DNA of 64,000 bases from Eledone cirrhosa (Eukaryota): positions 106,764,001 to 106,828,000 of the forward strand of contig OZ024744.1 of NCBI GenBank assembly GCA_964016885.1. Direction: 5' to 3'. The position numbers and the translations under genes were made by a program. Within the stretch, counting starts at the first letter, position 1. Each line of letters begins with the position of its first letter. Shown here piece after piece: positions 30,001 to 61,582 of this stretch. The notes beneath the pieces are model-generated. The model did not search any database and had not been told where the DNA came from. It saw only the letters and a program-made list of their open reading frames with translations.

Positions 30001-31645
30001 CTGACTTCCAACCAGTTTGTTGTAAGGTGGGTGAGAAGGAAGTGCTTCCTTCCAACCATTTTGTTGTAATGTGGGTGAGAGGGAAGTGCTGCCTTCCAAC
30101 CTCTTTGTTTTAAGGTGGGTGAGAGGGAAGTGCTGACTTCCAACCAGTTTGTTGTAAAGTGGGTGAGAGGGAAGTGCTGCCTTCCAACCAATTTGTTGTA
30201 AAGTGGGTGAGAGGGAAGTGCTGCCTTACAACCAGTTTGTTGTAAGGTGGGTGAAAGGGAAGTGCTGCCTTCCATCTAGTTTGTTGTAAGGTGGGTGAGA
30301 GGGAAGTGCTGCCTTCCAACCAGTTTGTCGTAACTTGGGTGAGAGGGAAGTGCTGCCTTCCAACCAGTTTGTTGTAACTTGGGTGAGAGGCAAGTCCTGC
30401 CTTCCAACCAGTTTGTTGTAACTTTGGTGAGAGGGAAGTGCTGCCTTCCAACCAGTTTGTTGTAAGGGGCTGAGAGGGAAGTGCTATCTTCCAACCTATT
30501 ATTTGTAAAGTGGGTGGGTGAGAAGGAAGTGCTGCCTTCCAACCTGTTTGTTGTAAGATGGGTGAGAGGGAAGTGCTGCCTCCAACCAGTTTCTTGTAAA
30601 GTAGGTAGGTGAGAGGGAAGTGCTGCCTTCCAACCAGTTTGCTGTAAGGTGGGTGAGAGGGAAGTGCTGCCTTCCAACCTATTTATTGTAAAGTGTGTGG
30701 GTGAGAGGGAAGTGCTGCCTTCCAACCAGTTTGTTGTAAGATGGGTGAGAGGGAAGTGCTGCATTCCAACCAGTTTTTTGTCAAGTGGTGGGTGAGAGGG
30801 AAGTGCTGCCTTCCAACCAGTTTATTGTAAGGTGGATAAGAGGGAAGTGCTGCCTTCCAACCTGTTTGTTGTAAGGTGGGTGAGAGGGAAGTGCTGCCTT
30901 CCAACCAGTTTGTTGTAAGGTGGGTGAGAGGGAAGTGCTACCTTACAACCAGTTTGTTGTAAGGTGGGTGAGAGGGAAGTTCTGCCTCCCAACCAGTTTG
31001 TTGTAAAGTGGGTGGGTGAGAGGGAAGTGCTGCCTGCCAACCTGTTTGTTGTAAGGTGGGTGAGAGGGAAGTGCTGCCTTCTAACCAGTTTGTTGTAAGG
31101 TGGGTGAGAGGGAAGTGCTGCCTTCCAACCTGTTTGTTGTAAGGTGGGTGAGTGGGAAGTGCTGCCTTCCAACCAGTTTGTTGTAAGGTGGGTGAGAGGG
31201 AAGTGCTACCTTCCAACCAGTTTGTTGTATGGTGGGTGAGAGGGAAGTGCTGCCTTCCAACCAGTTTGTTGTAAGGTGGGTGAGAGGGAAATGGTGCCTT
31301 CTAACCTGTTTGTTGTAAAATGGGTGGGTGAGAGGGAAGTGCTGCCTTACAACCAGTTTGTTGTAAAGTGGGTGAGAGGAAAGTGCTGCCTTCCAACCAG
31401 TTTGTTGTAAGGTGGGTGAGAGGGAATTGGTGCCTTCTAACCTGTTTGTTGTAAAATGGGTGGGTGGGAAGTGCTGCCTTCCAACCAGTTTGTTGTAAGG
31501 TGGGTGAGAGGGAAATGGTGCCTTCTAACCTGTTTGTTGTAAAATGGGTGGGTGAGAGGGAAGTGCTGCCTTACAACCATTTTGTTGTAAAGTGGGTGAG
31601 AGGGAAGTGCTGCCTTCCAACCAGTTTGGTGTAAAGTGGGTGAGA
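1..31645. repeat. 44-bp tandem satellite, about 700 monomers, consensus CCTTCCAACCAGTTTGTTGTAAGGTGGGTGAGAGGGAAGTGCTG, with 48-bp (+GGGT) variants and multi-kb higher-order duplications; runs off the left edge of the window
   Basis: Monomer read directly and continuous to about 31645. Near-identical ORF translations recur at offsets of 4910 (4626 vs 9536), 4733 (7134 vs 11867), 3706 (220 vs 3926) and 2848 (20881 vs 23729). Confidence 0.98.
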
Positions 31646-31955
31646 ACGGTGAACATGGTCCATGTGAATGGGCCTGCCTTGTGTATACACCTGTAGATTG
31701 GAGTAGAAAGACTGGGAGAGGGCACTTTGCCGTAGAGGACAAGGTGACTGTGGTTTTTGTGGGATTTCTACACTATTGACCCTTAGAGTCTCCTCAACTT
31801 TGGGGAAGTTTTTTGTTTTAAATGTTTATTTTAGTCTCTTTTATAAATTCTGTTTTACACAAAGAAAGCCCCACACCGCATCGTCCTGTACCGTCTTTAA
31901 TATTTCCCTAATGTGAACCCTGTGTGGTTAATAAAGAAATTATTATTATTATTAT
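31598..31955 (+). mobile_element. 3' end of a non-LTR retrotransposon (probably Tx1/L1-like): ORF C-terminus, 3' UTR, polyA signal and (ATT)n tail, fused to the last satellite monomer
   Basis: Frame 31598-31696 reads EREVLPSNQFGVKWVRTVNMVHVNGPALCIHL*. It is followed by about 230 bp of T-rich UTR-like sequence, AATAAA at 31930-31935 and (ATT)n at about 31939-31955. The Tx1 assignment is from recalled similarity to cephalopod Tx1 ORF2 ends, not from a search. Confidence 0.6.
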
Positions 31956-32029
31956 CTTTCATTTATACAGTAATGATTCTTATTAACAGCGGATCCTTTA
32001 ACTGACTTCCTATAAAGTTATGTATCCTC

Positions 32030-33260
32030 AGATAGAAAGTACTACTTTCCGCAGGATATTACTGTTCCCCAAATTGTTATTTTCTGCCCATGTCTTTCTT
32101 GGTCTTCTGCTACTGGAATTTCTTGGCACTTCTTCACTCATGAACATCACATGCCCATACCAATACATGCACACTACATCGGATTCATCTTATACCCAGT
32201 TTCTCTCAGTTCATCCATGCTTTGTTAATCATGCACGTCCATCAAAGCATGCTCACTTCATTTCTCTCCAGCTTTCACATGTCCTCTACAGTCACTGCCC
32301 ATGTCTCACTACCATGTAGTATCACACATCACACACAGACATCATACAGCCGACCTTTCATTCATTGGGAGAAATCTTTTGTTTTCAACAGAGGAAGTAG
32401 CTCTCTAAACTCCTTCCATCCTGTTCTTATTCTAACTACTATGCTCTTGGAATACCCGCTCCAGAACTAATTATATTACCTAGGTAGCAGAAGCTATCAA
32501 CCACTTCTATGGATCCTTCCAATTGACCCTGAACATCTACTACATAGAAAGTCTGCCTGCTATCCCACAACACCACTTGTGTACCCAAAATTTGTATTTT
32601 CTACATCATTCTGCCAACTTCTGTATAACAAGCAAGTATTAGGGTATTAGAGTCCTGTCTTCTTTCCTACTTAGTAACACTTCAGTTTTTCTAAGTTTAC
32701 TCTCATCCCTTTTGATTCCAAATTCTGCCTCCACAGCTGTTATTTATTCTCTAGTTCTTCAACAGATTCAGCTATAAGGACCAGAAGTTCCTATGGACAG
32801 TTAGTCTTAAACTCCTCTGTTATAGCCTGGAGAACTATAGATAGCAGAAGTGGACTGAAGACCAAACCCAAATGAACTCCTACCTTGAATTCTACACTAA
32901 ACTTCCTACTCTCACTTTACTGACAGCCCCTCTGTACATGGCTTGCACTGCCCTCACCAACCATTCTTCTACACATAATTTCCTTCAGGACCACCAGATG
33001 ACAGATCGAAGTATACTATCAAAGGCCTTTAATAGATCAACAAAAGCTAAATATAGTGACTTATTCTTGGCTAGGAACTTCTCTTGTAGTTACCTCACTA
33101 AGAAGAGAGCATTTGGAGTACTTTTCCCAGGTATGAAACCAAACTACATCTCATCTAATTTGACTCTTTCCCTAATTACTATGATATAACTCTTTCTCTC
33201 ACTTTTATAACTTGGTTCATTAATTTTATTCCCCTGTAGTTGTTCTATTCTAGAGGACCA
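32030..33260 (-). mobile_element. Degraded RTE-clade LINE, reverse transcriptase and C-terminal region
   Basis: Minus-strand translation with stops and frameshifts gives IVLQAITEEFKT.CP.ELL, EVVDSFCYLG, RIRTGWKEFRELLPLL, KGRLYDVCV, LHGSETWAVTVEDM.KLERNE, typical of RTE ORFs. Boundaries approximate. Confidence 0.8.
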
Positions 33261-33503: not shown

Positions 33504-33941
33504 TGTAGCGACCCCTTATGGCTGGAACTCAGAACGTATAAGAGTTGCGTCCCTTTGTGACGGTTGTGACCCCTAGTGGTACATCCATGAACTAAATGGA
33601 GTTACGTCCCCATGGTGACTATATATTTGAGAACTTGAGGCCATTCACTCTCTCACTTCCTATGCTGCAGCTGAAAGGACCACTTCAACCTTATGAAGAG
33701 AAGATTTCTGCTTTCTCTCCCTAGAGACGAATCCTGTCTTATGAAGAGACGACTCCTGTCTTCTCTCTCTCTTCTCTACACGCTCCAGTCTGGGAGTTGA
33801 GACCAACTCACCACCACGACACGTGGTAAAAATGTTTCTATTATTATTATTAGACTTCTGTGAAGTAAAACTATTGTACAAACATGCACCAGCCATTATT
33901 GTTCTTTTTAATAATATATACACTGATACTAACCTTCTAAA
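33504..33941 (+). repeat. 5' LTR
   Basis: Starts TGTAGCGACCCC and matches 38579-38991 apart from about 8 substitutions and a 22-bp insertion (ATGAAGAGACGACTCCTGTCTT). Ends ...AACCTTCTAAA. Confidence 0.93.
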
Positions 33942-33942
33942 T

Positions 33943-33956
33943 TGGTGACACCAAGA
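33943..33956 (+). promoter_or_regulatory. Primer-binding site, degenerate, tRNA-Trp-like
   Basis: TGGTGACACCAAGA immediately after the 5' LTR. The first 7 nt match the tRNA-Trp PBS (TGGTGACCCCGACG) used by CsRn1-type elements. Confidence 0.6.
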
Positions 33957-34158
33957 AAAAAAATGGGAGGCGGTATTATGTGTATATATAAAACAGAAAA
34001 AAAAAAAGAAAGAAAAAACATTTAATACAGAACAACACGCTTCATTCTGATCTGGTTATATTTTACTGATTTCAGCATCTTTCTCTGTAACATTTAACCA
34101 TCAAACTCCTCATATGTGCAAAGCGAACATTCCAATTATTTACACACATAAAAAAAAA

Positions 34159-34192
<34 letters not shown>

Positions 34193-34512
34193 TAATATTG
34201 CTGCTAGCTTCCTAGCAAAACAGAACAATTGTATGAATGTATTTTCTTCTTTTCTTTGGCTAAAAATTTTTGAGGATGACAAGATGGCGTGAAATCGTCC
34301 GCCTTATTGGTTTTCGTTTTAAATTCCCTGCCTATGTATTATTAATGCTATCGCTCGGTTAGTCGCTCCTTTACATGTTGTCTCGGATGCATTCTTTTTC
34401 CTGTCCAGTTGTTTGACAGAGAAAAACAAGCGAATTTGTTTTCTTTTTCCCTGGTGTTGGAGATATTTTTCCAAACGGAGACAAATTTTGGCCGTTTACC
34501 TACGGTATACCA

Positions 34513-35297
34513 ATGGCATCTCATTCTGTTCTACCTACGTACACGGGCGACGTAAGGTTATGGTTCACCCAACTCGAAGCATTTTTCGAGGTGAACACAA
34601 TCGACGAGGCACAACAACGTCCCCTAGTCCTTAGTGCAATTCCGCCGACACTTATCCCAGCGATTAAGGACCTGGTGTTAGATACACCTACCGACGCGAC
34701 GTACAAGTCTCTGAAGGCTGAAATACTCAGCCGAACTGCATAATCCGCAGAAAAAAGATTTAGGGCTCTGGTCTATCTGGAGCATATTGGTGATGGCACC
34801 CCATCGAACCTTTTAAGGCGAATGAAGGACCTAACGGAGGGGGTCGGTAGAGGAATCTGCCATGTTGAAGCAGTTGTTCTTCTTGCGCCTACCAACCAAG
34901 GTACAGGCATTTTTGGCCCCCATTAGGGATACTTGCACGGTGGATCAGCTTGCCGCCTCTGCGGACAAAGTTTTCGAAGTCACGGGTGCTGGAGGCAGCG
35001 AAGCCCTTGCCGCTGTTTCCCAACCAGCTCAGGCCACACCTGGTCATGCCATCTGTGCCACAACTCCTACAGACAGCTCAGCCATTATGGCGATGCAGAG
35101 GGCCATTCAGGAACTCACCCTGGAGCTCCAGAAGATGAAGGTCTGGTGTGGTGCCCGTTTGCGCTCGCGCAGCCGCGGGAGATCTCATTCTTTTAGACTC
35201 CGTCCCAGGTCACCAGCTTCATCTTTATGCTGGTACCATGAGCATTTTGCTGAGAATGCGAACCACTGCGGCGGGAAACGCCAAAGAGGTCCGCTGA
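34513..35297 (+). pseudogene. gag: Gypsy gag, disrupted by an in-frame TAA at 34741-34743 and a frameshift near 34850
   Basis: MASHSVLPTYTGDVRLWFTQLEAFF..., continuing past the stop as SAEKRFRAL...GDGTPSNLLRRMKDL, then [10 protein letters not shown]; RSRSRGRS tract; C-X2-H-X9-C motif [14 protein letters not shown]. Confidence 0.85.
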
Positions 35298-38200
35298 CGG
35301 AGGCAGTTGACCTCAGCATAAAGCCACCAAACCGCCATTTCTTCATTAAGGTCCTTATGTCAAGAAGAGGTTTCCTCATGGATACAGGGGCCTCCTGTAG
35401 TATTTGGCCGGTCCATTGCCTGAAAGATACCCCCGTGGAGTCATCCGTTACTCTGCAGGCCATTAACCACTCGTCTATAAAGATGTACGGACAAATCTTG
35501 CTTCCTCTCAAATTCCTAAATCTTCATAGGGATTTTAAGTGGATTTTTACGGTCGCCGATTTGCCATACCCAATCTTAGGAGCGGATTTCCTCCACAACT
35601 TCTCTTTGACTGTGGACGTCCGTGGCCAATGCCTGGTGAGTGACATCACCGGTTTTTCAATTCGTGGCCGGAAAGCCAATGCTCCAACAGTCAACCCCAT
35701 ATTCTTCATCGCTGCCGCTGGAGACGCCTACCATTCGTTGCTGGGTTCTTTCCCGGAGCTCACCGATGGAAATTTTCGAGTCACTGAGCCAACACACTCA
35801 ACTGAACATTTCATTTCCACCACCGGTACTCCAGTGTTTTCGCGTCCACGCCGCTTACCAGCGGACAAATTAAAGGCAGCACGGTCCGAGTTCGACCATA
35901 TGCTGCAGCTGGGCATTATTCGCCCATCTACGAGTCCTTGGGCTTCACCGTTACACGTGGTGCCCAAGACTTCCGGCGACTGGAGACCCACTGGGGATTA
36001 TAGGAGGTTAAATGCCATGACCGTCCCGGATAGGTATCCCATTCCCCATCTCCAGGATTTCGCATCTTCATTGCAGGGGTGTAAGATTTTCTCAAAACTA
36101 GATATAGTGCGAGCCTACCACCAAATTCCGGTCAGGAAGGAGGATATTCCGAAAACGGCGATTACAACTCCTTTCGGATCCTTCAAATTTTTTACCATGC
36201 CTTTCGGACTCAGGAACGCCGCTAGCACTTTTCAGCGGTTCATAGACGAAGTCACTCGTGGTCTGGTCTTCGTTTATGCATACATAGACGATCTTCTCGT
36301 CGCTAGTTCCTGTCCGGAAGAGCAAATGCGCCACATGCATCTCTTATTTCGGCAACTTCAGGATTACCGCGTTCGTGTGAATCCCGCAAAGTGTGTTTTC
36401 GGTTCCGCTTCGCTAAATTTTTTAGGTCACCTCATCGACACCGAAGGTATTAGGCCCCTTCCTCAGCGAGTTCAAGCTATACAGGATTTACCTCTGCCTA
36501 CTACACTTCACCAGTTGCGTCACTTCTTAGGCCTAATCAATTTCTATAGGCGTTTCGTTCCTCATTGTGCTAATTTGCTATCTTCCCTTACCGACATTTT
36601 GAAAAATCGTCGTAAGAAGAATGAGGATATTTCCTTGACACAAGGACAGCTCAAAGACTTCCAGACTGCCAAGACAGCACTTGCTAATTCATCTTCGCTA
36701 GCCCACCCGGTACCAGAGGCCAAGCTTTCGCTTTGTGTTGATGCATCTGATACTGCTGTGGGAGCAGTTTTACAACAGTATAATGCTGGAAACCAACAAC
36801 CTTTGGCATTTTTCTCAAGGAAGCTGAAACCAGCAGAAACGCGTTACAGCATGTTTGGGCGGGAATTATTAGCCATATATCTGTCGGTGAAACATTTCTC
36901 TCATATTCTTGAGGGGAGAAATTTTACTGTTTTAACTGACCACAAACCTCTGACCTTCGCTTTGAGGGCTAAAGCCGACAAATATTCACCCAGAAAGACA
37001 AGGCACCTGGATTACATTTCGCAATCACAAATGATATCCAGCACATTGCTGGCTCGCTTAACACAGCTGCAGACGCATTGTCACGTTTGCCAAACAGCTC
37101 CATCTCGTCATCCCAGGAAATCGACTTAAGTTGTTTAGCTGCAGACCAACCTGCACTCCAATTGTTGGATACTCAATCTGCCGAGTTTGCGACTTGCATC
37201 TTCAAATATCTGCCCTTGTCGACCACCGACAGGCAGATTCTATGTGATGTATCTACAGATTCACCACGACCTTATGTTCCTAAGACTCACCGTCGAATTG
37301 TGTTCCTTGCTTTGTACAACATTTCTCACCCAGGAATTTCAGCCACAGTAAAGCTCATAACAGCTAGATTTTTCTGGCCCAATATGAGGCGAGAAATTAC
37401 TGTCTGGTGCCGTTCCTGCATACAGTGTCAAAAATAAAAGTCCACAGAGACATCCGGACTCCACTTGGTACTTTCAGTACTCCAGATGCTCGTTTTCAAC
37501 ACATCCACATTGATATCGTTGGACCTTGGCCATTCAGCAGTGGATATTCGTACCTCTTGACCTGTATCGATCGTTTTTCGCGATGGCCTGAAGCCATCCC
37601 CTTAAAGGACATTACCGATGAGACTATAGCGCATGCCCTGGTATCAGGGTGGATTACCCGTTTTGGGGTACCAACTACAGTCACCACAGACCGTGGTAGA
37701 CAAGTTGAGTCTCATCTCTTCTCTGAGCTGACAAAGATCTTTGGTGCTCAACGTATTCGGACCACACCTTATCATCCTGCTTCAAACGGAATGGTGGAAC
37801 GATTCCACCGCCAATTAAAGGCCGCTCTTCCCGCCTATCCAGACTCTCAACGTTGGAGCGAGTACCTTCCTATTGTGTTGTTAGGAATTCGGTCATCAAT
37901 AAAGGAGGACCTTGGCTTCTCCCCGGCCGAATTACTGTATGGTGCTCCTCTAACGTTGCCTGGGCAAATGCTTGCTCCTGTTGATCTTGCTTTCCAGGAC
38001 CCTGTTTCCTACGTATCTCGTTTGCGTTCCTATTTTCAGGACTTACCGCCCATGAATACTAGGAAACAAACTATTAAAGCTGCAGTCCCGAGGGATATTG
38101 CCTCGTGGACACATCTTTGTCAGAAACGATGCGGTTAGTTCACCTCTCACACAACCGTACTCTGGACCCTACTGTGTTAGCACGTACTGACAAACATTTC

Positions 38201-38419
38201 ACAGTAGGCATTAAGGGGTCCAGCGAGACAATTTCGGTGCATAGATTAAAAAGGGCATACACTGACGCTCATACATCCGAGCCACAAATACCCCAATCTT
38301 TCTCTATTGTGTATACACCTGCTCCTTCTGCCCCACCTTCACCTACATACAAGATCACGACCCGTTCCGGTCGAAAAGTCCACTGGCCCCCAAAACTCTG
38401 CCAAACTGTTTTTATGTGA
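35273..38419 (+). pseudogene. pol: Gypsy pol (protease, RT, RNase H, integrase) with frameshifts near 37025, 37435 and 38110
   Basis: Protease FLMDTGAS; [28 protein letters not shown]; RNase H CVDASD..RELLAI..TDHKPL; integrase Zn region HPG..CIQCQ and core [20 protein letters not shown]; C-terminal TRSGR. Confidence 0.95.
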
Positions 38420-38566
38420 ACTGGCCACTGGAGCCTTTTTTGTTTTTCTTTTATTGAACTATGTATACATGTACCTTTTTATTTTTCATTACTATTTCAT
38501 GCATGTGCTTGCATCCCATGCTTGTGGGTTCGCTACAATTACCTTCGGGCTTTTCACCTATCGTCT

Positions 38567-38578
38567 GGAGGAGGGTAC
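38567..38578 (+). promoter_or_regulatory. Polypurine tract
   Basis: GGAGGAGGG-TAC directly before the TG of the 3' LTR. Confidence 0.8.
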
Positions 38579-38988
38579 TGTAGTGACCCCTTACGGCTGG
38601 AACTCAGAACGTATAAGAGTTGCGTCCCTTTGTGATGGGCGTGACCCCTAGTGGTACATCCACGAACTAAATGGAGTTACGTCCCCATGGTGACTATATA
38701 TTTGAGAACTTGAGGCCATTCACTCTCTCACTTCCTACGCTGCAGCTGAAAGGACCACTTCAACCTTATGAAGAGAAGATTTCTGCTTTCTCTCCCTAGA
38801 GATGAATCCTGTCTTCTCTCTCTCTTCTCTACACGCTCCAGTCTGGGAGTTGAGACCAACTCACCACCACGACACGTGGTAAAAATGTTTCTATTATTAT
38901 TATTAGACTTCTGTGAAGTAAAACTATTGTACAAACATGCACCAGCCATTATTGTTCTTTTTAATAATATATACACTGATACTAACCT

Positions 38989-39861: not shown

Positions 39862-40680
39862 TGTGACAAAGGTTGTATCTCAGTACTGTGACAGAGGTTG
39901 TATCTCAGTATTGTGACAGAGGTTGTATCTCAGTACTGTGACAGAGATGTATCTCAGTATTGTGACATAGGTTATATCACAGTACTGTGACAGAGGTTGT
40001 ATCTCAGTATTGTGACAGAGGTTGTATCTCAGTACTGTGAGAGATTGTATCTCAGCATTGTGACAGGTTTATCACAGTAATGTGACATAGGTTGTATCAC
40101 AGTACTGTGACGAGGTTGTCTCTCTGGTGTGACACAGGTTGTCACAGTACTGTGACAGAGGTTGTATCTCTACTGTGACATAGGTTGTATCAGAGTAGTG
40201 ACATAGTTGTTTAACAGTACTGTGACAGAGGTATCACAGTACTGTGACAGAGATTGTATATCAGTATTGTGACAGGTTGTATCTCAGTACTGTGACAGAG
40301 GTAACACAGTACTGTGAGAGGTTGTATCTCAGTACTATGACATAGGTTGTACCACAGTAGTGTGACAGGTTGTATCTCAGTACTGTGACAGAGGTTGTAT
40401 CTCAGCATTGTGACAGAGGTTGTATCACAGTAGTGACATAGGTTGTACCTCAGTATTGTGACAGAAGTTGTATCTCTACTGTGACATAGGTTGTATCAGA
40501 TAACTGTGACAGAGGTTGTATCACAGTACTCACAGAGATTGTATCTCAGTATTGAGACAGGTTGTATCACAGTACTGTGACAGAGGGTGTATCACAGTAC
40601 GGTGACAGAGGTATCACAGAAGTGCGACAGAGATTGTATCACAGTACTGTGACAGAGGTTGTATCACAGTACTGTGACAT
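39862..40680. repeat. Degenerate 25-bp minisatellite (GAGGTTGTATCT/ACAGTACTGTGACA), about 33 copies
   Basis: GGTTG recurs at 39871, 39896, 39921 and onwards; many units carry the palindrome TCACAGTACTGTGA. Confidence 0.92.
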
Positions 40681-45031: not shown

Positions 45032-45236
45032 CTATTCAACTTTAATTAAAAGTGATGCAAGCATGATTGATCCTCTCTCCTTGGTACTCCATTCAATTTC
45101 ATTATTGCTGAACCTCGGGTCAAACTGTTCATTGGATCCTATTGATGAGGGGCCAACTTTGTAAGACGATGGTTTAACCCAAACCTGGAATGCTACTTGT
45201 GCTTGATGACATTTTTTGGTTTTAGGATCTGTGAAT
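45032..45236 (-). CDS. NEURL4: Neuralized-like protein 4, last coding exon (C-terminal ART/PARP-like domain end)
   Basis: Acceptor TTTTTTTTATTTCCAG, phase 2. Translates FTDPKTKKCHQAQVAFQVWVKPSSYKVGPSSIGSNEQFDPRFSNNEIEWSTKERGSIMLASLLIKVE*, matching the human NEURL4 C-terminus as I recall it (FRDPK..HQAQVAFQVCVRPGSY..DPHFS..ELEWVTKEKGATLLCALLVRVE*). Confidence 0.93.
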
Positions 45237-45351
45237 CTGGAAATAAAAAAAAGAATATATCATCATCCCCATCATCACCGCAACCACTTCCACAACAACC
45301 ACCATCACTGCCCCCCGCCACCACAACCACTGTCACACCCCCACCACCACA

Positions 45352-45561
45352 TTGTCCCAGTGAGGTGTCTCTATACTATAGTTAAGACCTACATGACTTG
45401 TGTATTGTCCCAGTGAGGTGTCTCTATAGTTAAGACCTAAATGACTTGTGTATTGTCCTAGTGAGGTGTCTCTATAGTTAAGACTTACATGACTTGTGTA
45501 TTGTCCCAGTGAGGTGTCTCTATAGTTAAGACCTACATGACTTGTGTATTGTCCCAGTGAG
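45352..45561. repeat. 48-bp tandem repeat, about 4 copies
   Basis: TTGTCCCAGTGAGGTGTCTCTATAGTTAAGACCTACATGACTTGTGTA recurs at 45405, 45453, 45501 and 45549. Confidence 0.9.
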
Positions 45562-45634
45562 ATGTGGGTTACTTACTGAAAGCATCTAAAACAGCTGAAA
45601 CACATTCATCAGCAGCAGTTTTATTGAATCATGT

Positions 45635-46704
45635 GTCTACACTAGAGGTTGTATGTGATGTTGAGGTCTACACTAGAGGTTGTATGTGATGTTGAGGTCT
45701 ACACTAGAGGTTGTGTGTGATGTTGAGGTCTACACTAGAGGTTGTATGTGATGTTGAGGTCTACACTAGAGGTTGTATGTGATGTTGAGGTCTACACTAG
45801 AGGTTGTATGTGATGTTGAGGTCTACACTAGAGGTTTACACTAGAGGTTGTATATGATGTTGAGGTCTACACTAGAGGTTGTATGTGATGTTGAGGTCTA
45901 CACTAGAGGTTGTATGTGATGTTGAGGTCTACACTAGAGGTTGTATGTGATGTTGAGGTCTACACTAGAGGTTGTGTGTGATGTTGAGGTCTACACTAGA
46001 GGTTGTGTGTGATGTTGAGGTCTACACTAGAGGTTGTATGTGATGTTGAGGTCTACACTAGAGGTTGTATGTGATGTTGAGGTCTACACTAGAGGTTGTA
46101 TGTGATGTTGAGGTCTACACTAGAGGTTGTATGTGATGTTGAGGTCTACACTAGAGGTTGTGTGTGATGTTGAGGTCTACACTAGAGGTTGTGTGTGATG
46201 TTGAGGTCTACACTAGAGGTTGTATGTGATGTTGAGGTCTACACTAGAGGTTGTGTGTGATGTTGAGGTCTACACTAGAGGTTGTATGTGATGTTGAGGT
46301 CTACACTAGAGGTTGTATGTGATGTTGAGGTCTACACTAGAGGTTGTATGTGATGTTGAGGTCTACACTAGAGGTTGTATGTGATGTTGAGGTCTACACT
46401 AGAGGTTGTATGTGATGTTGAGGTCTACACTAGAGGTTGTATGTGATGTTGAGGTCTACACTAGAGGTTGTGTGTGATGTTGAGGTCTACACTAGAGGTT
46501 GTGTGTGATGTTGAGGTCTACACTAGAGGTTGTATGTGATGTTGAGGTCTACACTAGAGGTTGTATGTGATGTTGAGGTCTACACTAGAGGTTGTATGTG
46601 ATGTTGAGGTCTACACTAGAGGTTGTGTGTGATGTTGAGGTCTACACTAGAGGTTGTATGTGATGTTGAGGTTTACACTAGAGGTTGTATGTAATGTTGA
46701 GGTC
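45635..46704. repeat. Highly homogeneous 31-bp minisatellite (CTACACTAGAGGTTGTATGTGATGTTGAGGT), about 34 copies
   Basis: Period 31 read directly; essentially a single A/G variant site. Confidence 0.96.
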
Positions 46705-46975
46705 CTTGAAAGAAGTCATTTTTAGAGCAGATTATCTCAACACCATCTCTGATGGGTGGGACATGTGGTGAGAAGGGAGGACTGAGCTGAGGAATGGCAA
46801 ATGTCCACCTCTTAAACCTAACATGAGGTTCAAGGACTGTGTGACAACATCTTTGATGAAAACTGGCATCTCCAATAGAGACTGGGAACAAGTTGCCAAT
46901 GACCGAATTCAGTGGAGGGAAGCTGTATATGAAGCGAAAGTACACTTTGAAATGATGGCCCAAAGAAAATATGAA
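46685..46975 (+). mobile_element. RTE-clade LINE 3' ORF fragment
   Basis: Translation CNVEVLERS..WVGHVVRRED..ELRNGKCPPLKPNMRFKDCVTTSLMKTGISNRDWEQVANDRIQWREAVYEA matches RTE/BovB-type C-terminal motifs. Confidence 0.75.
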
Positions 46976-47056
46976 GGGGATGTGAGGAAGGTTTGAAAAT
47001 CAAACTGCCAGGAAGTGTGGGAGAAATATAGAAATAAGAATTGTGCAAATGACTAA

Positions 47057-47911
47057 AAATAATAATAAAAATTGTTCCTACTTTTGGCACAAGGCCAGCA
47101 AGTACCCCAGTGCATTACTGGTACTTTACAACCCCGTAAGGATCAAAGACAAAGTTAACCTTGGCGGGAAGTTAATAATTGTGTCTACTTTTGGCACAAG
47201 GCCAGCAAGTACCCCAGTGCATTACTGGTACTTTAGAACCCCCGTAAGGATGAAAAGCAAAGTTAACCTTGGCGGGAAGTTAATAATTGTGTCTACTTTT
47301 GGCACAAGGCCAGCAAGTACCCCAGTGCATTACTGGTACTTTACAACACAGTAAGGATGAAAGGCAAAGTTAACCTCAACGGGATTTGAACTCAGACCAT
47401 AAAGGGCCGTAACTCTATGCTGCAAAGCATGGCGTCAGACCCTCTACCAATACTGCCAATCCACCGGGAGGTTAATAATAATAATGATTTCTACTATAGG
47501 CACAAGGCCAGCAATTTGTGGGGAGGGGAAAGTCAATTAAATTGACCCCAGTGCGTTATTAGTACTTTATTTTACCGACTCCATGAGGATAAAAGGCAAA
47601 GCTAACCTCGGCAGGATTTAAAACCCAGAACGTAAAGGGCCATAACTCTATACTGAAAAGCATATTGCCCAACTCTCTACGGATACTGCCAATCCACCGC
47701 CCTTTAATAATAATAATAATAATAATTGTTTCTACTTTAGGCACAAGGCCAGCAATTACCCAGTGCATTACTGGTACTTTATTTTATCGACCCCGTAAGG
47801 ATGAAAGGCAAAGTCAACCTCGGCGGGATTTGAACTCAGATCGTAAAGGGACGTAACTATGCTGGAAAGCATGGCGTCTGACCCTCTACCGATACTGCCA
47901 ATCCACCGCCC
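47057..47911 (-). mobile_element. SINE cluster: three SINE heads, the first with its 3' ~122 bp tandemly triplicated
   Basis: CTACTTTTGGCACAAGGCCAGCAAGTACCCCAGTGCATTACTGG recurs three times within 47075-47340, followed by two more full copies. Confidence 0.85.
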
Positions 47912-53366: not shown

Positions 53367-53618
53367 CCTGGAATTCCATCAGTTCTGATGAGTGTTTCAG
53401 TTGTTCAATCAACCATGTAAGCTGCTGAACATTCCACAGACACATGTACCCTTAAGGTAATTCTCAGGGAGATTCAGTATGGCACAATGTCTGTCAAAGC
53501 TGTCCCTTTTGAATTACAGGTATAACTCATTTCTATGGCTGAGTGACAGGAGTGATGTGAAATAAAGTGTCTTGTTCAAGGACACAATGTGCCACCAGGA
53601 ATTGAACTCATGCCCTAA
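53366..53618 (-). mobile_element. Degraded tRNA-derived SINE
   Basis: Minus strand has GAGTTCAATTCC box B and TGTGTCCTTGAACAAGACACTTTATTTCAC, as in the 39062 copy. Confidence 0.6.
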
Positions 53619-54276
53619 TTACTATTAGATGACACGGGACCATGGTCTCTGGCGCTATACAGTATTACAGAAGACCTGCCCGCCCATATGCTTGAGCTGA
53701 GGCATATATCTAGTATGCAACACCTTCCCTACCATCACCCCTCCCTTGCTGTAATCACTTCATCCCTATATCGACGTCTCCAATTACTCAGGCATCTCCA
53801 CCACCCCACCGCAGTCCCCAGCCTACTCCATGAAGAGGTCCCCCTGGAACCACAACAAAAGCACCCAGTACACACTGTAAAGTGGTCGTGTTGGGAACAC
53901 GAAAAAAGTGCTCAGCCCACACTATAAGGTGGTCATGTAGGTGACAACAAAAAGCAGCCAGCACTCACTGTAAATGTGGTTGGTGCTAGGAAGGGCCTCC
54001 AGCTGTAGAAACCAAGCCAGAATCAGTTCTGTGTAAGCAAAACACGGTCCTCCAACCTGATCCCTCACAAAGGGACAGCCTGTCCTACCCATGCTAGTGT
54101 AGAAGATGGATGTTAAACGATGATGATGTCCCTCACAAGATATTGGTCAGCCCAATGCTATAGTAGAAAACACTTGCTTAAGAAGTCACACAATGGGACT
54201 GAACCTGAAAATCCATGGTTGTGAAGTGAATTCTTTATCCATACTGCCAGAGCACCACCTGTTACTATTTGTTTTG

Positions 54277-54966
54277 AAGGTGCGTGGCCTAGTGGTAAGT
54301 ATGCTGAACTTACAATCATAAAATCATGGGTTTGATTCCTGAACTGGATTGTGTGTTGTGTTCTTGAACAAAACACTTCACTTCACACTGCTCCAGTATA
54401 CTCAGCTGAAAATAAGTATCAGCAATAGTGAGGGGTTTAACTCTGTGATGGGCTGGCATCCTGTCCAAGGAAAGTCACTTCACACCACCTAACTGGGATA
54501 AGCACTGACCTAATGAACCTTCTGGCTTCATTCAGATTTTAACCCTGTAATGGACAGGTGTCTTGACCAGGGGAAGTCTTGTACTTCACACCACCTAACT
54601 GGGATAAGCACTGACCTAATGAACCTTCTGGTATGAGGCAGACTTTAACCCTGTAATGGACAGGTGTCTTGTCCAGGGGAAGTCTTGTACTTCACACCAC
54701 CTAACTGGGATAAGCACTGGCCTAATGAACCTTCTGGTCTGAGGCAGACTTTAACCCTGTAATGGACAGGTGTCTTGTCCAGGGGAAGTCTTGTACTTCA
54801 CACCACCTAACTGGGATAAGCACTGGCCTAATGAACCTTCTGGTCTGAGGCAGACTTTAACCCTGTAATGGACAGGTGTCTTGTCCAGGGGAAGTCTTGT
54901 ACTTCACACCACCTAACTGGGATAAGCACTGGCCTAATGAACCTTCTGGTCTGAGGCAGACTTTAC
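54277..54966 (+). mobile_element. tRNA-derived SINE whose 3' 106 bp is tandemly repeated about 5 times
   Basis: Box A TGGCCTAGTGG and a box B-like GGTTTGATTCC. CACACCACCT recurs at 54481, 54587, 54693, 54799 and 54905. Confidence 0.8.
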
Positions 54967-55314
54967 ACTTAAACTTGTGTTTTAATTCTATTTTATCTCA
55001 CTCCTTGTCTATATGTAATTAATTTTAATTCACAACAGAAAAGAAGGTAGAGCTACAATAAAGATTAATTCTATTAAAATAATATTCAACAATGACCATT
55101 AACTGTTAGGAGGTGGTCATTAAGTCCAGCTGTATATAAATGATTAAATGTTATTGTTTGAAGACAGACCCCTCCCCCTCTTCTACACACAATTTGGCAG
55201 ACCACACTGTTGTGGATTTTCTGTATTTTGGTCAAACAAAATAATGTTGAAAATTCTCAGCATTTTATACAACTCACACTTCTAGACAAGGAAAAAAAAA
55301 AACTAATAAAATAT

Positions 55315-55570
55315 ACACCACCACCACCTCTACCACTGCCATCACTACCACCTCTACCACTGCCATCACTACCACTACCACCTCTACCACTGCCATCACC
55401 ACCACCACCACTGACATCACCACCACACCACCATCACTACTACCACACTTCACAATAAACACCACCACTGCTACTAACCCCACACCCCACAACCTCCACC
55501 ACCTCTGCACATCACACCTCACAACCACCATATCCACCACAATCATACACACACCACCATGCCGCCAACA
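55315..55570. repeat. (CAC/CCA)-rich low-complexity tract
   Basis: Direct inspection. Confidence 0.8.
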
Positions 55571-55619
55571 TCATCCTACTTAATATACCTGCCACTTCTT
55601 CACCAAACTGAAATCACCT

Positions 55620-58020
55620 ACACATATAACATGTCTATAACAGTGCAGTCAACTCTCTTGTACACAATATCTGATTACTCTTATACCCAGTTTACCCTTT
55701 AGTTCATTCATGCTTTACTGTTCATGCCCACTAACATTACACATACAACAAAGCATGTTAGTTTCATTCTTTTCTACCCTTCACCATCCTCTACATTAAC
55801 TACCCATGTCTCACTACCATGTAACATACACAGACATCATACAATCTACCCTTCACACATCCTCTACATTATCTACCCATGTCTCACTACCATGTAACAT
55901 ACACAGGCATCATACAATCTACCCTTCACACATCCTCTACATTAACTACCCATGTCTCACTACCATGTAACATACACAGACATCATACAATCTACCCTTC
56001 ACACATCCTCTACATTATCTACCCATGTCACACTACCATGTAACATACACAGACATCATACAATCTACCCTTCACACATCCTCTACATTAACTACCCATG
56101 TCTCACTACCATGTAACATACACAGACATCATACAATCTACCCTTCACACATCCTCTACATTAACTACCCATGTCTCACTACCATGTAACATACACAGAC
56201 ATCATACAATCTACCCTTCACACATCCTCTACATTAACTACCCATGTCTCACTACCATGTAACATACACAGACATCATACAATCTACCCTTCACACATCC
56301 TCTACATTAACTACCCATGTCTCACTACCATGTAACATACACAGACATCATACAATCTACCCTTCACACATCCTCTACATTAACTACCCATGTCTCACTA
56401 CCATGTAACACAGACACATCATACAATCTACCCTTCACATATCCTCTACATTAACTACCCATGTCTCACTACCATGTAACATACACAGACATCATACAAT
56501 CTACCCTTCACACATCCTCTACATTAACTACCCATGTCTCACTACCATGTAACATACACAGACATCATACAATCTACCCTTCACACATCCTATACATTAA
56601 CTACCCATGTCTCTCTACCATGTAACATACACAGACATCATACAATCTACCCTTCACACATCCTCTACATTAACTACCCATGTCTCACTACCATGTAACA
56701 TACACAGACATCATACAATCTACCCTTCACACATCCTCTACATTAACTACCCATGTCACACTACCATGTAACATACACAGACATCATACAATCTACCCTT
56801 CACACATCCTCTACATTAACTACCCATGTCACACTACCATCATACAATCTACCCTTCACACATCCTCTACATTAACTACCCATGTCTCACTACCATGTAA
56901 CATACAGACATCATACAATTTACCCTTCACACATCCTCTACATTAACTACCTATGTCTCTCTACCATGTAACATAGACAGACATACAATCTACCCTTCAC
57001 ACATCCTCTACATTAACTACCCATGTCTCACTACCATGTAACATACACAGACATCATACAATCTACCCTTCACACATCCTCTACATTAACTACCCATGTC
57101 TCACTACCATGTAACATACACAGACATCATACAATCTACCCTTCACACATCCTCTACATTAACTACCCATGTCTCACTACCATGTAACATACACAGACAT
57201 CATACAATCTACCCTTCACACATCCTCTACATTAACTACCCATGTCTCACTACCATGTAACATACACAGACATCATACAATCTACCCTTCACACATCCTC
57301 TACATTAACTACCCATGTCTCACTACCATGTAACACAGACATCATACAATCTACCCTTCACACATCCTCTACATTAACTACCCATGTCACACTACCATGT
57401 AACATACACAGACATCATACAATCTACCCTTCACACATCCTCTACATTAACTACCCATGTCTCACTACCATGTAACATACACAGACATCATACAATCTAC
57501 CCTTCACACATCCTCTACATTAACTACCCATGTCTCACTACCATGTAACATACACAGACATCATACAATCTACCCTTCACACATCCTATACATTAACTAC
57601 CTATGTCTCTCTACCATGTAACATAGACAGACATACAATCTACCCTTCACACATCCTCTACATTAACTACCCATGTCTCACTACCATGTAACATACACAG
57701 ACATCATACAATCTACCCTTCACACATCCTCTACATTAACTACCCATGTCTCACTACCATGTAACATACACAGACATCATACAATCTACCCTTCACACAT
57801 CCTCTACATTAACTACCCATGTCTCACTACCATGTAACATACACAGACATCATACAATCTACCCTTCACATATCCTCTACATTAACTACCCAAGTCTCAC
57901 TACCATGTCACATACACAGACATCATACAATCTACCCTTCACATATCTTCTACATTAACTACCCATGTCTCACTACCAGGTAACATCACACTACATACAC
58001 TAACATCTCTACCCTATTGA
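55620..58020 (-). mobile_element. RTE LINE fragment interrupted by tandem amplification of its own sequence
   Basis: The left flank translates on the minus strand to EKNETNMLCCMCNVSGHEQ.SMNELKGKLGIR, continuing the RTE ORF from the satellite monomer. Homologous to 32180-32350. Confidence 0.75.
55774..57990. repeat. 73-bp tandem satellite, about 30 copies
   Basis: CTACCCTTCACACATCCTCTACATTAACTACCCATGTCTCACTACCATGTAACATACACAGACATCATACAAT; period 73 (55846 to 55919). Confidence 0.96.
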
Positions 58021-58281
58021 GTACTTTTCTTAGTTGCTTCTCAATTTACAAGAAATCAATCACTGAGGAGGTCACAATGTGTGACAAAAGAGCTTTGCCA
58101 ATAAACAAACAACTATCCAGTTATTGAACCAACCCATTGGAAATTTATAATAAATTGAAGTGAAAACCAACAGGTGTATGTGTTGTCATTGGCAACATGA
58201 CCCTCCCAAAGTATAACAATATCTGTTTCAACACACGTTTTCAGATAAGCAATCTTACAAAACAAATTCAAAAATGAGTTA

Positions 58282-58815
58282 TGTATATTGCAATACACTG
58301 TATGCTTATTTAAAACCATTTCGAAAACCTTACGCTATTGTTTTAGAGTAGTGACAGTCTCACTTACTTTAAATTTTCAGCAAACAGGGGAGATAAAGCT
58401 GACAGAGCTATGTTTCGTACTGATTCGTACTTATCAAAGCCACGTACTTCACCTGTTTGCTGAAAATCATGAATGTTTGATTCATATATATATAAATGTT
58501 TCATTCATATATATATATAGCTATTTCAGAGCACCAATTCTAACTTTCAATTTCTGCTTGACCGGCAACCGCTCTGTATAATCAGTTCCTGATTATTACT
58601 AGAAATTCTATAAGAATCAAACAGTCATGATTTTCAGCAAACAGGTGAAGTACTTGGCTTTGATAAGTACCAATCAGTACGAAACATAGCTCTGTCAGCT
58701 TTATCTCCCCTGTTTGCTGAAAATTTAAAGTAAGTGAGACTGTCACTACTCTAAAACAATAGCGTAAGGTCTTCGAAATGCTTTTAATTAAGCATACAGT
58801 GTATTGCAATATACA
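58282..58815. repeat. Long inverted repeat, 202-bp arms (58282-58483 / 58614-58815), 130-bp spacer; MITE/foldback-like
   Basis: The arms are reverse complements with few mismatches; ORFs 58288+ and 58582- give near-identical peptides. Confidence 0.93.
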
Positions 58816-58829
58816 CTGTATATACATTC

Positions 58830-58860
<31 letters not shown>

Positions 58861-58892
58861 CAAGTAGAAACTTTGTGGTAACATTGACTAAA

Positions 58893-59324
58893 TAATTGTT
58901 ACTACTTTAGGCACAAGGCCAGCAATTATTACTGGTAATTTATTTCATCATACCTGTAACAATGAAAGGCAAAGTTAGCCTCGGTGGGATTTGAACTCAG
59001 ACCGTAACTCTATGCTGCAAAGCATGGCGTCCGACCCTCCACTGATACTGCCAATCCACCGCCCAACAGAACAGAAAAAGATATGTCCTGACAGCCATCT
59101 TTTTCTGTTCAGTATGTTCATATGCCTCATTATTAGGCTATATTATTTAATCAAGGGCGGTGGATTGTCAGTATTGGTAGAGGGTCGGACGCCATGCTTT
59201 CCAGCATAGTTACGTCCCTTTACGATCTGAGTTCAAATCCCGCCGAGGTTAACTTTGCCTTTCATCCTTACGGGGTCGATAAAATAAAGTACCAGTAATG
59301 CACTGTGTAATTGAAACAATTATT
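58893..59324. mobile_element. Inverted (head-to-head) pair of SINEs: minus copy about 58893-59064, plus copy about 59155-59324
   Basis: Same SINE family in opposite orientations about 90 bp apart. Confidence 0.85.
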
Positions 59325-59497
59325 TAATCAATGTTATATTTCAATTTTAAACCTTGCTTGCCATGTTCCAAACATACTCCTTTATATATATATAAAGGAT
59401 GGTCACAGCTGGAACAGCTTTGATCATAGGTCTGGTGGATCAAGTCTGACCTTGGGTTAAGAAAAAGAAAGGAAGAAGCAGAAGATAGTAAACATAC

Positions 59498-59645
59498 TTG
59501 TGTCTAGATGAGAAATATTTTGATCCTGCATATCGAATGGTTGGCGAAAGAAAGAGTTGTCGACTTAAAGAATCATCAGGTTTAGTTTTCTGTGTGTAAT
59601 GGAAAGACTGTGCCAGTAGAATGTTACTACCTGATAAGATTTCAG
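59498..59645 (-). CDS. NEURL4: NEURL4 penultimate coding exon
   Basis: Acceptor TTTTCTTCTTTCTAG, donor GTATGT, 148 nt, phases 1/2 matching both neighbours. Translates EILSGSNILLAQSFHYTQKTKPDDSLSRQLFLSPTIRYAGSKYFSSRH(K), cf. human LLSPSLQYAG as recalled. Confidence 0.92.
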
Positions 59646-59884
59646 CTAGAAAGAAGAAAAAACCAAAGTTAATAACATTTCATGTGAACACAACAGAAAG
59701 TATTTTAACAGTTACATAATGTTAACAATTCCAAAAGATGTTTGGAGAGAAAAAAATAAAACATACTTTGGTGGAAGTTTTATGTTAATATACAGAAATT
59801 AGACTTCATATGTGGCAGATCCACAGGTTTAGTCAGCAGTAGGGTACTCATGAAATAAACTACCTCAAATATTTAGAAGCATCA

Positions 59885-60230
59885 ATAGAAGTAATAGAAA
59901 GTGTTTGTCATCTAGGTGACTGCTTTAGCAGTGGAGGTGGATATATTGAATGTGATGTAACCAGAATGAGAATGGAGTGGAAGAAGTTCAGGGAGCTGTT
60001 ACCCTTCCTGGCAACAAGGTTTCCTCTCAGAGTGAAGGGCAGATTATAAGGTGCAATGCTGCATGACCAAAAGACATGGGCCTGGAATGCAGAATATTTG
60101 CAGGGGCTAAAATAAAATGAAGCATGCAAATGTAATGTTAGGGCGAAGAAAACGGCACTAATGAACTGAGGGAAATGATGAGTATGAAAGGAAAATAATG
60201 TAACATTAAAGAGACAATAGTGTTAGTACA
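59885..60230 (+). mobile_element. Degraded RTE LINE fragment
   Basis: IEVIESVCHLGD..SSGGG..RMEWKKFRELLPFL..RVKGRL..MLH..KTWA, the same region as 32270-32500. Confidence 0.75.
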
Positions 60231-60428
60231 ATGTTTTTCATACATTACGGGTTTGATGTGGTTTCTACACCTGGATGACATTTCTATCACCAATTATTTT
60301 ACAGATTGTACTGGGCTTATCATTGTACCAGTCCTAGGGTTGTGGTCAGGTTGTTGATGTGACTAAAGAGATCTCTCTACTCTATCATGCCTCTGTTAGA
60401 TCACAATCGATTTTACAGGATGTGCTGA

Positions 60429-61582
60429 GTGTATTTTATGACAGCAGTAACACTAGAGAGGTTGTCAGGTCATTAACTGGACTAAAGTGTCCTCTCACTT
60501 TATAGACAACACCAGGTGTATTTTATGATAGCAGTAACACTAGAGAGACTGTCAAGTCGTTAACTGGACTAAAGTGTCCTCTCACTTTATAGACAACACC
60601 AGGTGTATTTTATGATAGCAGTAACACTAGAGAGCTTGTCAGGTTGTTAACTGGACTAAAGTGTCCTCTCTATCACTTTATAGACAGCACCAGGTGTATT
60701 TTATGATAGCAGTAACACTAGAGAGGTTGTCAGGTTAACTGGACTAAAGTGTTCTCTCTATCACATTATAGACAACACCAGGTGTATTTTATGATAGCAG
60801 TAACACTAGAGAGGTTGTCAGGTTGTTAACTGGACTAAAGTGTCCTCTCACTTTATAGACAACACCAGGTGTATTTTATGACAGCAGTAACACTAGAGAG
60901 GTTGTCAGGTCGTATTTTATGATAGCAGTAACACTAGAGAGGTTGTCAGGTCGTTAACTGGACTAAAGTGTCCTCTCTATCACCTCAAAGACAGCACCAG
61001 GTGTATTTTATGATAGCAGTAACACTAGAGAGGTTGTCAGGTCGTTAACTGGACTAAAGTGTCCTCTCTATCACTTTATAGACAACACCAGGCGTATTTT
61101 ATGATAGCAGTAACACTAGAGAGGTTGTCAGGTCGTTAACTGGACTAAAGTGTCCTCTCTATCACCTCAAAGACAGCACCAGGTGTATTTTATGATAGCA
61201 GTAACACTAGAGAGGTTGTCAGGTCGTTAACTGGACTACAGTGTCCTCTCTATCACTTTATAGACAGCACCAGGTGTATTTTATGACAGCAGTAACACTA
61301 GAGAGGTTGTCAGGTCGTTAACTGGACTAAAGTGTCCTCTCTATCACTTTATAGACAACACCAGGTGTATTTTATGACAGCAGTAACACTAGAGAGGTTG
61401 TCAGGTCGTTAACTGGACTAAAGTGTCCTCTCACTTTATAGACAACACCAGGTGTATTTTATGATAGCAGTAACACTAGAGAGGCTGTCAGGTCGTTAAC
61501 TGGACAAAAGTGTCATCGCTATCACTTTATAGACAGCACCAGGTGTATTTTATGATAGCAGTAACACTAGAGAGGTTGTCAA
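60429..61582. repeat. 87-91-bp tandem repeat, about 13 copies
   Basis: CAGGTGTATTTTATGATAGCAGTAACACTAGAGAGGTTGTCAGGTCGTTAACTGGACTAAAGTGTCCTCTC(TATC)ACTTTATAGACAACAC; ACCAGG at 60511, 60598 and 60689. Confidence 0.93.

What the first reader, a model, noticed from the sequence alone, without database searches (positions are those of the whole stretch)
31598..61582. Recurring process: at least five independent tandem arrays each built from a slice of an adjacent retroelement
The arrays are 44 bp (LINE ORF end, about 700 copies), 31 bp (abuts and reads into an RTE ORF, about 34), about 122 bp (SINE 3' end, 3), 106 bp (SINE 3' end, about 5), 73 bp (inside an RTE ORF, about 30) and possibly 87-91 bp (about 13). 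In each case the unamplified remainder of the element lies at the array edge, and for the 44- and 73-bp units a short microhomology marks the join. The copy numbers form a graded series from 3 to about 700. This suggests an unusually active, microhomology-seeded tandem amplification mechanism acting on retroelement debris, which could help explain satellite-filled giant introns in this genome. TE-derived satellites are known in general; the local density and graded series are the unusual part.
Basis: partly seen in the sequence, partly recalled or inferred. Interest (0 to 1): 0.75.

Follow-up and report, generated by a model that had tools for sequence, protein, structure and literature searches.

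The report
Octopus-genome satellites grown from retrotransposon scraps
Several tandem repeats in and beside an octopus-type NEURL4 gene are short pieces of dead retrotransposons copied head to tail up to about 1,900 times, likely started by an ordinary short-homology duplication and enlarged by kilobase block duplications; such arrays fill roughly a sixth of sampled DNA across this genome and show no preference for retrotransposon DNA, so this is a known process on an unusually large scale rather than a local or retroelement-specific one.

Summary
The arrays are real and retroelement-derived, but they are not five independent births by one retroelement-specific local mechanism. The 44-bp array (1,886 units, 89-kb span) and the 31-bp array grew in place: both flanks continue one LINE fragment, with 5-bp and 3-4-bp microhomology. 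The 44-bp array grew by kilobase block duplications. The 73-bp array belongs to a family with one junction at 9 or more loci on 6 contigs, most without parent flanks. The 106-bp array expanded an older SINE 3' dimer that other copies share. The '122-bp' unit is 108 bp. Evenly spaced 10-kb samples show arrays over 14-33% of DNA, in 33 of 59 stretches. Overhangs of 3-10 bp are in modest excess. Arrays fill 65% of 170 kb of NEURL4 introns; the 44-bp array lies downstream of the gene. The mechanism is published (Haber-Louis/MTD, TE-derived minisatellites, squamate sSats). The scale in an octopod was not found in print by my searches. The scan noted the same process on other DNA of this genome.

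The parts
1..31645 (+). Right third of a single-locus 44-bp satellite (1,886 units, window -57,579 to 31,645) made of a slice of the ORF2 3' end of a zf-RVT-bearing LINE; bounded by GAGAG
31646..31950 (+). Unamplified 3' remainder of the same LINE (ORF end, 3' UTR, ATT tail); the 5' remainder lies at window -57,990 to -57,580
39862..40679 (.). 25-bp array, about 34 copies, unit without dispersed match (counter-example to TE specificity; a short unit limits the search)
45032..45236 (-). Last coding exon of NEURL4 (stop at 45032-45034)
45351..45565 (+).
45566..45634 (+). Unamplified RTE-like LINE sequence between the 48- and 31-bp arrays
45635..46704 (+). Single-locus 31-bp array, about 34 copies, 98% alike, bounded by GTC (GGTC in several dispersed copies)
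46705..47024 (+). Unamplified downstream part of the RTE-like LINE fragment
47066..47467 (-). tRNA-type SINE followed head to tail by two 108-bp copies of its 3' half; the three units share derived changes
54270..54965 (+). Second SINE family; 106-bp array x4.6 (54477-54965) expanded from an older 3' dimer whose TTTA join other copies share
55565..57991 (-). RTE-type LINE fragment (55565-55772) running into a 73-bp array x30 (55773-57991); member of a multi-locus satellite family
59498..59645 (-). NEURL4 second-last coding exon (ends approximate)
60250..61581 (+). Dispersed repeat with degenerate internal repeats (60250-60428) running into the 87-91-bp array x13 (60429-61581)
63548..63663 (-). 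NEURL4 third-last coding exon (ends approximate)

Best explanation
These arrays are slices of retrotransposon copies repeated head to tail, likely seeded at the DNA level by a duplication between short homologies or an older tandem dimer, then enlarged by kilobase block duplications and sometimes likely copied to new sites, in a genome where such arrays form from TE and apparently non-TE DNA alike. Step 1, seed: shown for 44 and 31 bp, where collapsing the array restores the single-copy element with the microhomology at both ends; shown as an older dimer for 106 bp; inferred for 87-91 bp; replication slippage or microhomology-mediated repair is inferred. Step 2, growth: shown for 44 bp as multi-unit duplications up to 3 kb at 98% identity, and as shared-variant diagonals in five other long arrays; unequal sister exchange or break-induced template switching is inferred. 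Step 3, export: shown for 73 bp as arrays without parent flanks on several contigs; circular DNA or ectopic repair is inferred and untested. Retroelements supply about half of the units because they make up about that share of the non-array DNA. No function is implied; the arrays are likely neutral filler tolerated in introns and intergenic DNA.
For: Collapsed 44-bp allele is spanned by one alignment in 27 of 29 dispersed copies, mean 85%; collapsed 31-bp allele in 13 of 24, mean 69%. Junction patterns: 32 of 32 matches in the window for 31 bp; for 44 bp the first 100 of 114 listed matches lie in this array and none is on the reverse strand. Chance of an exact microhomology of 5 or more is 0.9%, of 3 or more 6.8%. 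Survey of 99 closed arrays: 27 with 3-10-bp overhang and 14 with 0-2 bp, against 14 and 31 expected from a blunt-plus-random mixture, p 2e-5; one per family p 0.002. 329 duplicated blocks of 10 or more units at 95% or more in the 44-bp array vs 6 after shuffling; neighbours are no more alike than distant units. 73-bp junction: 1,257 exact matches, 9 loci, six without RTE flank beyond 36 bp. No TE enrichment. Arrays in 33 of 59 evenly spaced stretches.
Against: The TE test used only 566 kb of unmasked reference and misses true cases: it scored the 31-bp array as unmatched although searches show its origin, and hits were more diverged for arrays (median 77% vs 88%), so a bias toward old TEs cannot be excluded. 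Per family, the 3-10-bp class alone is not above a uniform-phase null (18 vs 13.8, p 0.14). Only 16 of 99 arrays have both edges colinear, and 33 of 99 have ends out of phase by more than 10 bp, so a clean in-place origin is shown for a minority. One SINE segment gives 10 separate 47-51-bp arrays, so some TE sites are hotspots. The 108-bp join shows no clear microhomology. No orthologous unamplified allele or second individual was examined.
Confidence: 0.72

Rival explanations
1. One reading: a locally active amplifier that acts on retroelement debris and made five or more independent arrays here.
For: Seven of the eight complex arrays checked in the window trace to dispersed repeats. The 384-kb region is 64% arrays, above the 14-33% of evenly spaced samples.
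Against: No TE enrichment over control DNA. Units with no dispersed match exist, such as the 25-bp array and the 29-bp array 9 bp from a NEURL4 exon. Other regions fetched on C28, C21 and C26 are also packed with arrays. The 73- and 106-bp joins are shared with other loci.
Confidence: 0.1
2. Reverse transcription makes the tandem units (template jumps or circular RNA templates during retrotransposition), and the arrays are insertion products.
For: SINE 3' dimers with the same TTTA join recur: 11 of the 14 dispersed copies read show a second 3' unit, though the query selected for them. 24 of 115 clusters of the other SINE have a head-to-tail extra piece; four of these clusters are parts of one array. 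The 73-bp junction sits in three different RTE copies, which a source element carrying the dimer would explain.
Against: Units within an array share changes absent from the family: T for A in 1,308 vs 4 units of the 44-bp array, shared deletions in the 106- and 108-bp units. So amplification came after insertion and decay. The 44- and 31-bp joins are single-locus. Block duplications of different ages argue for repeated DNA events.
Confidence: 0.1
3. Each long array arose in one rolling-circle burst from a small DNA circle that reinserted at or near its origin, then decayed.
For: Flat identity along the 44-bp array and no neighbour effect in 21 arrays of 50 or more units. Arrays of the 73-bp unit without parent flanks start and end at arbitrary phases.
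Against: No fixed higher-order period. Many duplicated blocks at different offsets and identities of 95-99% show repeated later growth. Perfect colinearity of both flanks over 89 kb needs homologous reinsertion.
Confidence: 0.06
4. Assembly artefact.
For: Long repeats are hard to assemble, and no reads were laid on the arrays, so exact copy numbers are unverified.
Against: Units differ by about 6% from consensus with individual changes, the closest blocks are 98.6% and not identical, an LTR element with a 4-bp target duplication sits inside the array, and the window has no N.
Confidence: 0.02

Closest known systems
Haber-Louis minisatellite origin / microhomology-mediated tandem duplication (MTD; PMC13167724, abstract and section 10 read; Haber and Louis 1998 seen only as cited in PMC6947457 passages and PMC3389668)
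   Same: A single-copy segment flanked by short direct repeats is duplicated and expands; the array ends in a partial unit equal to the microhomology (44 bp, 31 bp).
   Different: In yeast only 131 of 9,149 loci with a 2x allele reached 3x; here arrays reach tens to about 1,900 copies and cover 14-33% of sampled DNA.
TE-derived minisatellites of the human genome (Ahmed and Liang 2012, PMC3389668; parts 1-2 of 4 read)
   Same: Units colinear with a TE, mostly single-locus, a minority multi-locus, some TE families with built-in repeats over-represented.
   Different: Human: 7,276 arrays, mean about 2.3-2.4 units for Alu-derived ones, about 0.32% of the genome by their figure. Here median 10 units and arrays up to 90 kb; the filters differ, so the comparison is rough.
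SINE-derived satellites (sSat) of squamates (Vassetzky et al. 2023, PMC10702118; part 1 of 5, passages and Discussion read)
   Same: Tandem units shorter than the element, a terminal unit that continues to the element's end, a few to 1,000 units per locus, genomes differing in susceptibility for unknown reasons.
   Different: Here LINE coding DNA and apparently unique intron DNA are used as well, 80 distinct unit families in 100 arrays, and long arrays are not more homogeneous.
Euchromatic Rsp-like/1.688 satellites of Drosophila (Sproul et al. 2020, PMC7403614; abstract and outline seen)
   Same: Intralocus growth by unequal exchange and spread of arrays to new loci along one chromosome, as for the 73-bp family.
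   Different: They showed eccDNA and microhomology-guided insertion into an older satellite; neither is tested here.
Ogre-derived satellites of Lathyrus (PMC7004042; passages read)
   Same: Many different satellites in one species grown from short tandem repeats already inside retrotransposons, like the 106-, 87- and 48-bp cases.
   Different: LTR elements' 3' UTR repeats in a plant; here non-LTR elements, and seeds also arise after insertion.

Membership tests
MTD / Haber-Louis minisatellite | Collapsed array restores a single-copy ancestral allele | tested here: met
   44 bp: 27 of 29 dispersed copies span it; 31 bp: 13 of 24. Not met as a unique origin for 73 bp.
MTD / Haber-Louis minisatellite | Short direct repeat at both unit ends that predates the array | tested here: met
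   GAGAG in dispersed LINE copies; GTC/GGTC for 31 bp; TTTA for 106 bp. Not seen for 108 bp.
MTD / Haber-Louis minisatellite | Microhomology above chance across many arrays | tested here: inconclusive
   Excess over blunt and mixture nulls, p 2e-5 and 0.002, but p 0.14 per family against uniform phase alone.
MTD / Haber-Louis minisatellite | 1x and nx alleles at the same locus in a population; dependence on flap endonuclease | not testable with these tools
   No related genome is held; no reads were laid on the arrays.
TE-derived satellite (Ahmed-Liang, sSat) | Unit similar to a TE (about 70% or more) or overlapping it by one period | tested here: met
   44, 31, 48, 73, 106, 108 and 87-91 bp; 31 bp and 87 bp are near the limit at 69-79%.
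TE-derived satellite (Ahmed-Liang, sSat) | Terminal unit continues into the unamplified element | tested here: met
   Both sides for 44 and 31 bp; one side for 73, 87-91, 106 and 108 bp.
   49% vs 58% of edges; 35% vs 55%; small reference with known false negatives.
Multi-locus mobile satellite (Rsp-like type) | Same unit and join at several loci without parent flanks | tested here: met
   73-bp family, 9 loci on 6 contigs; not met for 44 and 31 bp.
Multi-locus mobile satellite (Rsp-like type) | Monomer-multiple eccDNA | not testable with these tools
   Needs circle sequencing or 2D gels.
Reverse-transcription-made tandem | Units decay independently from the family sequence after one insertion | tested here: not met
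   Units share post-insertion changes; the first dimer of the 106- and 73-bp families may still be RT-made.

The most novel reading that the evidence does not exclude
This octopod lineage is a genome-wide tandem-amplification mutator: ordinary microhomology duplications, which stall at two or three copies in yeast and humans, are routinely driven to tens or thousands of copies by kilobase block duplication at on the order of 100,000 loci, and some arrays detach and colonise other chromosomes. Because TE copies preserve the ancestral allele, the genome is a ready-made record of satellite birth, growth and spread, and array growth rather than TE insertion would be the main driver of its intron size.
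Probability: 0.35. Interest if true: 0.65.

Novelty: new member of a known kind. Interest (0 to 1): 0.38.

Why it matters
How satellites start and why some genomes amplify them are open questions (stated in PMC10702118 and PMC3389668). Here the ancestral single-copy allele, the microhomology, the growth blocks and the exported arrays can all be read in one assembly, for example an 89-kb satellite still bracketed by the two halves of its parent LINE. If the scale holds genome-wide, models of satellite birth become testable on very many loci, and tandem arrays must be counted beside TEs in cephalopod genome and intron expansion. The mechanism itself is not new and no function is indicated.

Tried and rejected
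Single-burst (star-like) growth of the 44-bp array: suggested by flat identity and by a stringent ungapped megablast that found no duplicated block, rejected after unit-level analysis found 329 blocks. The window as sole birthplace of the 73-bp family: plausible after (only locus of five with a long RTE flank, ancestral bases at its right edge), weakened by C7 and C23 loci that carry the same join inside other RTE copies. The C21 80-bp array as an independent origin: rejected, it shares the deletion and a variant with C28 arrays. Copy number as an age series: rejected. PDB search of the last exon gave 0 hits; Pfam gave no family for five of nine frames, the last exon among them; the protein atlas gave no result. 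Sequencing runs: 4 of 7 listed hold the exon-intron stretch, one study, no RNA holder listed; copy-number variation between individuals remains open. Literature searches for tandem arrays in cephalopod genomes listed no paper on the subject; a 2026 coleoid genome-expansion paper has no occurrence of 'satellite' or 'tandem' in its main text (PMC13652810; supplements not looked at). The library lacks most subscription papers, so absence from print is not established. The survey's complexity filter dropped the 73-bp, 25-bp and AC-rich arrays; the 73-bp window array was added back by hand for the overhang count, and the two halves of the 44-bp array were counted once.
Full report
Setting. The window is G000:C28:106,764,001-106,828,000 of a 3.0-Gb animal genome. 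A frame at 45035-45238 on the minus strand is 96% identical to Octopus bimaculoides and O. vulgaris proteins and 59-76% identical to proteins named neuralized-like protein 4. Neuralized-domain exons run from C28:107.047 to 106.845 Mb, and tblastn with P0003 places 21 exon matches down to the stop at 45032. The organism is therefore an octopod (inferred), and 45237-64000 lies in the last introns of NEURL4. The 44-bp array ends 13 kb downstream of the stop codon; whether it lies in another gene was not tested.

Observation. All six arrays exist. The '122-bp' unit is 108 bp. Two more complex arrays lie in the same stretch, 48 bp and 25 bp.

The 44-bp array is the clearest case. It runs from window position -57,579 to 31,645 with 1,886 units and is interrupted by a 5.5-kb LTR element with 96.6% identical LTRs and a 4-bp target duplication. 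The DNA on both sides continues one LINE fragment: removing the extra units gives an allele that 27 of 29 dispersed copies span in one alignment. A related copy nearby carries RVT_1 and zf-RVT; the L1/Tx1 label is recalled. Dispersed copies have GAGAG at both unit ends, or 9 of 10 bases with one gap; an exact match of 5 or more arises by chance in 0.9% of random pairs. The join was found only in this array among the first 100 of 114 exact matches, none on the reverse strand. Nearly all units carry a T where the family has A (1,308 vs 4), so amplification followed insertion.

The 31-bp array behaves the same way: both flanks are colinear with an RTE-like LINE (label recalled; 13 of 24 copies span the collapsed allele), the overhang is GTC, and 32 of 32 junction matches are in the window. 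The 48-bp array 70 bp upstream comes from the same fragment.

The other arrays differ. For 106 bp, 11 of 14 dispersed SINE copies read already show a second 3' unit joined at TTTA (the query selected for these). In the window the first unit's 5' half is diverged from the rest, so a recent expansion started from an old dimer. The 87-91-bp unit continues a dispersed element that shows degenerate internal repeats in one of the three copies aligned. The 108-bp array is a SINE plus two 3' halves with shared derived changes and no clear microhomology. The 73-bp join has 1,257 exact matches, only the first 100 listed. Together this gives at least nine loci: C7, C21, C23, C24, C25 and four on C28, from 2 units to more than 90 kb. 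Three sit in RTE sequence on one side (window 208 bp, C7 155 bp, C23 238 bp); six show 36 bp or less, with one end of the longest not reached. So this array is one member of a mobile family and not a proven independent birth. The 25-bp unit, and a 29-bp unit that ends 9 bp from a NEURL4 exon, have no dispersed match (short units limit sensitivity).

Is the density local? In 59 evenly spaced 10-kb stretches (60 asked), complex arrays cover 66,198 of 200,000 bases on C28, 27,145 of 200,000 on large contigs (slightly overcounted in one stretch) and 37,005 of 190,000 on small ones; 33 of 59 stretches hold one. The 384 kb around the window is 64% arrays and the 20 NEURL4 intervals between exon matches are 65% arrays, 110,449 of 169,479 bases. 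This region is rich, but other fetched regions look alike. Weighted by contig class the sample suggests about a sixth of the genome and on the order of 100,000 arrays; this is my extrapolation.

Is it retroelement-specific? In 1.254 Mb surveyed, 121 arrays passed the filters and 100 had both ends, in 80 unit families. Units matched dispersed DNA in 35 of 100 arrays vs 273 of 500 controls, and with a more sensitive edge test in 97 of 198 vs 343 of 594. 53 of 99 arrays had one colinear edge and 16 had both. The reference is small and missed the 31-bp array, so the TE share is underestimated, possibly more for arrays than controls. One SINE segment is a real hotspot with 10 arrays.

Microhomology in bulk. 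Of 99 arrays, 27 end with a 3-10-bp overhang and 14 with 0-2 bp; blunt in-place simulation predicts 10 and 68, uniform phase 17 and 6. A mixture null is rejected (p 2e-5; one per family p 0.002), but per family the 3-10-bp class alone is not above uniform (p 0.14). The signal is present and modest.

Growth. Neighbouring units are no more alike than distant ones in 21 long arrays. The 44-bp array holds 329 blocks of 10 or more units at 95% or more identity (6 after shuffling), including tandem duplications of 2.7 and 2.3 kb at 98%; 1,573 of 1,822 units lie in such blocks. Five other long arrays show similar shared-variant diagonals. Growth is thus by repeated multi-unit duplication; unequal exchange or break-induced copying is inferred. 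Copy numbers form a continuous skewed range (median 10, maximum about 1,840 in one piece) unrelated to divergence, so the 'graded series' is a sample of that range and not a time course.

Comparison with print. Seeding by 5-10-bp repeats and later expansion is the Haber-Louis model (PMC6947457 passages; PMC3389668 parts 1-2), now supported broadly as MTD (PMC13167724 abstract and section 10). TE-derived arrays with a terminal unit running into the element are described in squamates (PMC10702118) and reviewed (PMC12628747 passages and part 1 of section 6). Spread of arrays is described in Drosophila (PMC7403614 abstract). Five searches listed no paper on such arrays in cephalopods. Earlier notes of this scan report the same process on other DNA of this genome.

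Verdict. Real, mechanistically ordinary, not local and not shown to be TE-selective; notable for its scale and for how completely the history can be read. New member of a known kind, interest 0.38.

Noticed in passing
window 33504-38991: Gypsy-type LTR retrotransposon with protease, RT, RNase H and integrase matches, several breaks, LTRs 93% identical.
   Followed up: partly
L036-L035 (window -54,772 to -49,252): A related LTR element with a 1,002-aa open frame inserted inside the 44-bp array; it gives a minimum relative age for the array.
   Followed up: partly
window 48751-53366: 4.6-kb AC/AT-rich low-complexity array with an 834-bp higher-order repeat, grown from a microsatellite and not from a TE.
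   Followed up: no
L042:6919-8788 (window +80,919 to +82,788): 29-bp array of 64 copies ends 9 bp before a NEURL4 exon and leaves the splice acceptor intact.
   Followed up: partly
window -105,345 to -58,340 (L109-L036): 59-bp array of about 797 copies next to the 44-bp one; one edge is colinear with a dispersed repeat and the flank reads like reverse transcriptase (family label not tested).
   Followed up: partly
L215 (C28:118,095,412-118,098,788): Separate 47-bp array cut from the same RTE segment as the 73-bp unit but with other ends, seated in its own RTE flank.
   Followed up: partly
window +66,825 and L134:3339-4070: The 41-bp array of 248 copies has an 18-copy sister 15 Mb away, a second multi-locus family.
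   Followed up: no
C28 as a whole: C28 (136.5 Mb) is out of size order among the contigs and had the highest array load, 6 of 20 stretches wholly satellite; it may be a separately named chromosome such as a sex chromosome (untested).
   Followed up: no
window 58249-58827: Inverted repeat of about 250 bp with shared open frames on both strands, MITE-like.
   Followed up: no
window 47882-48361: 159-aa frame resembling the C-terminal nuclease region of a non-LTR element (recalled); no Pfam family.
   Followed up: partly
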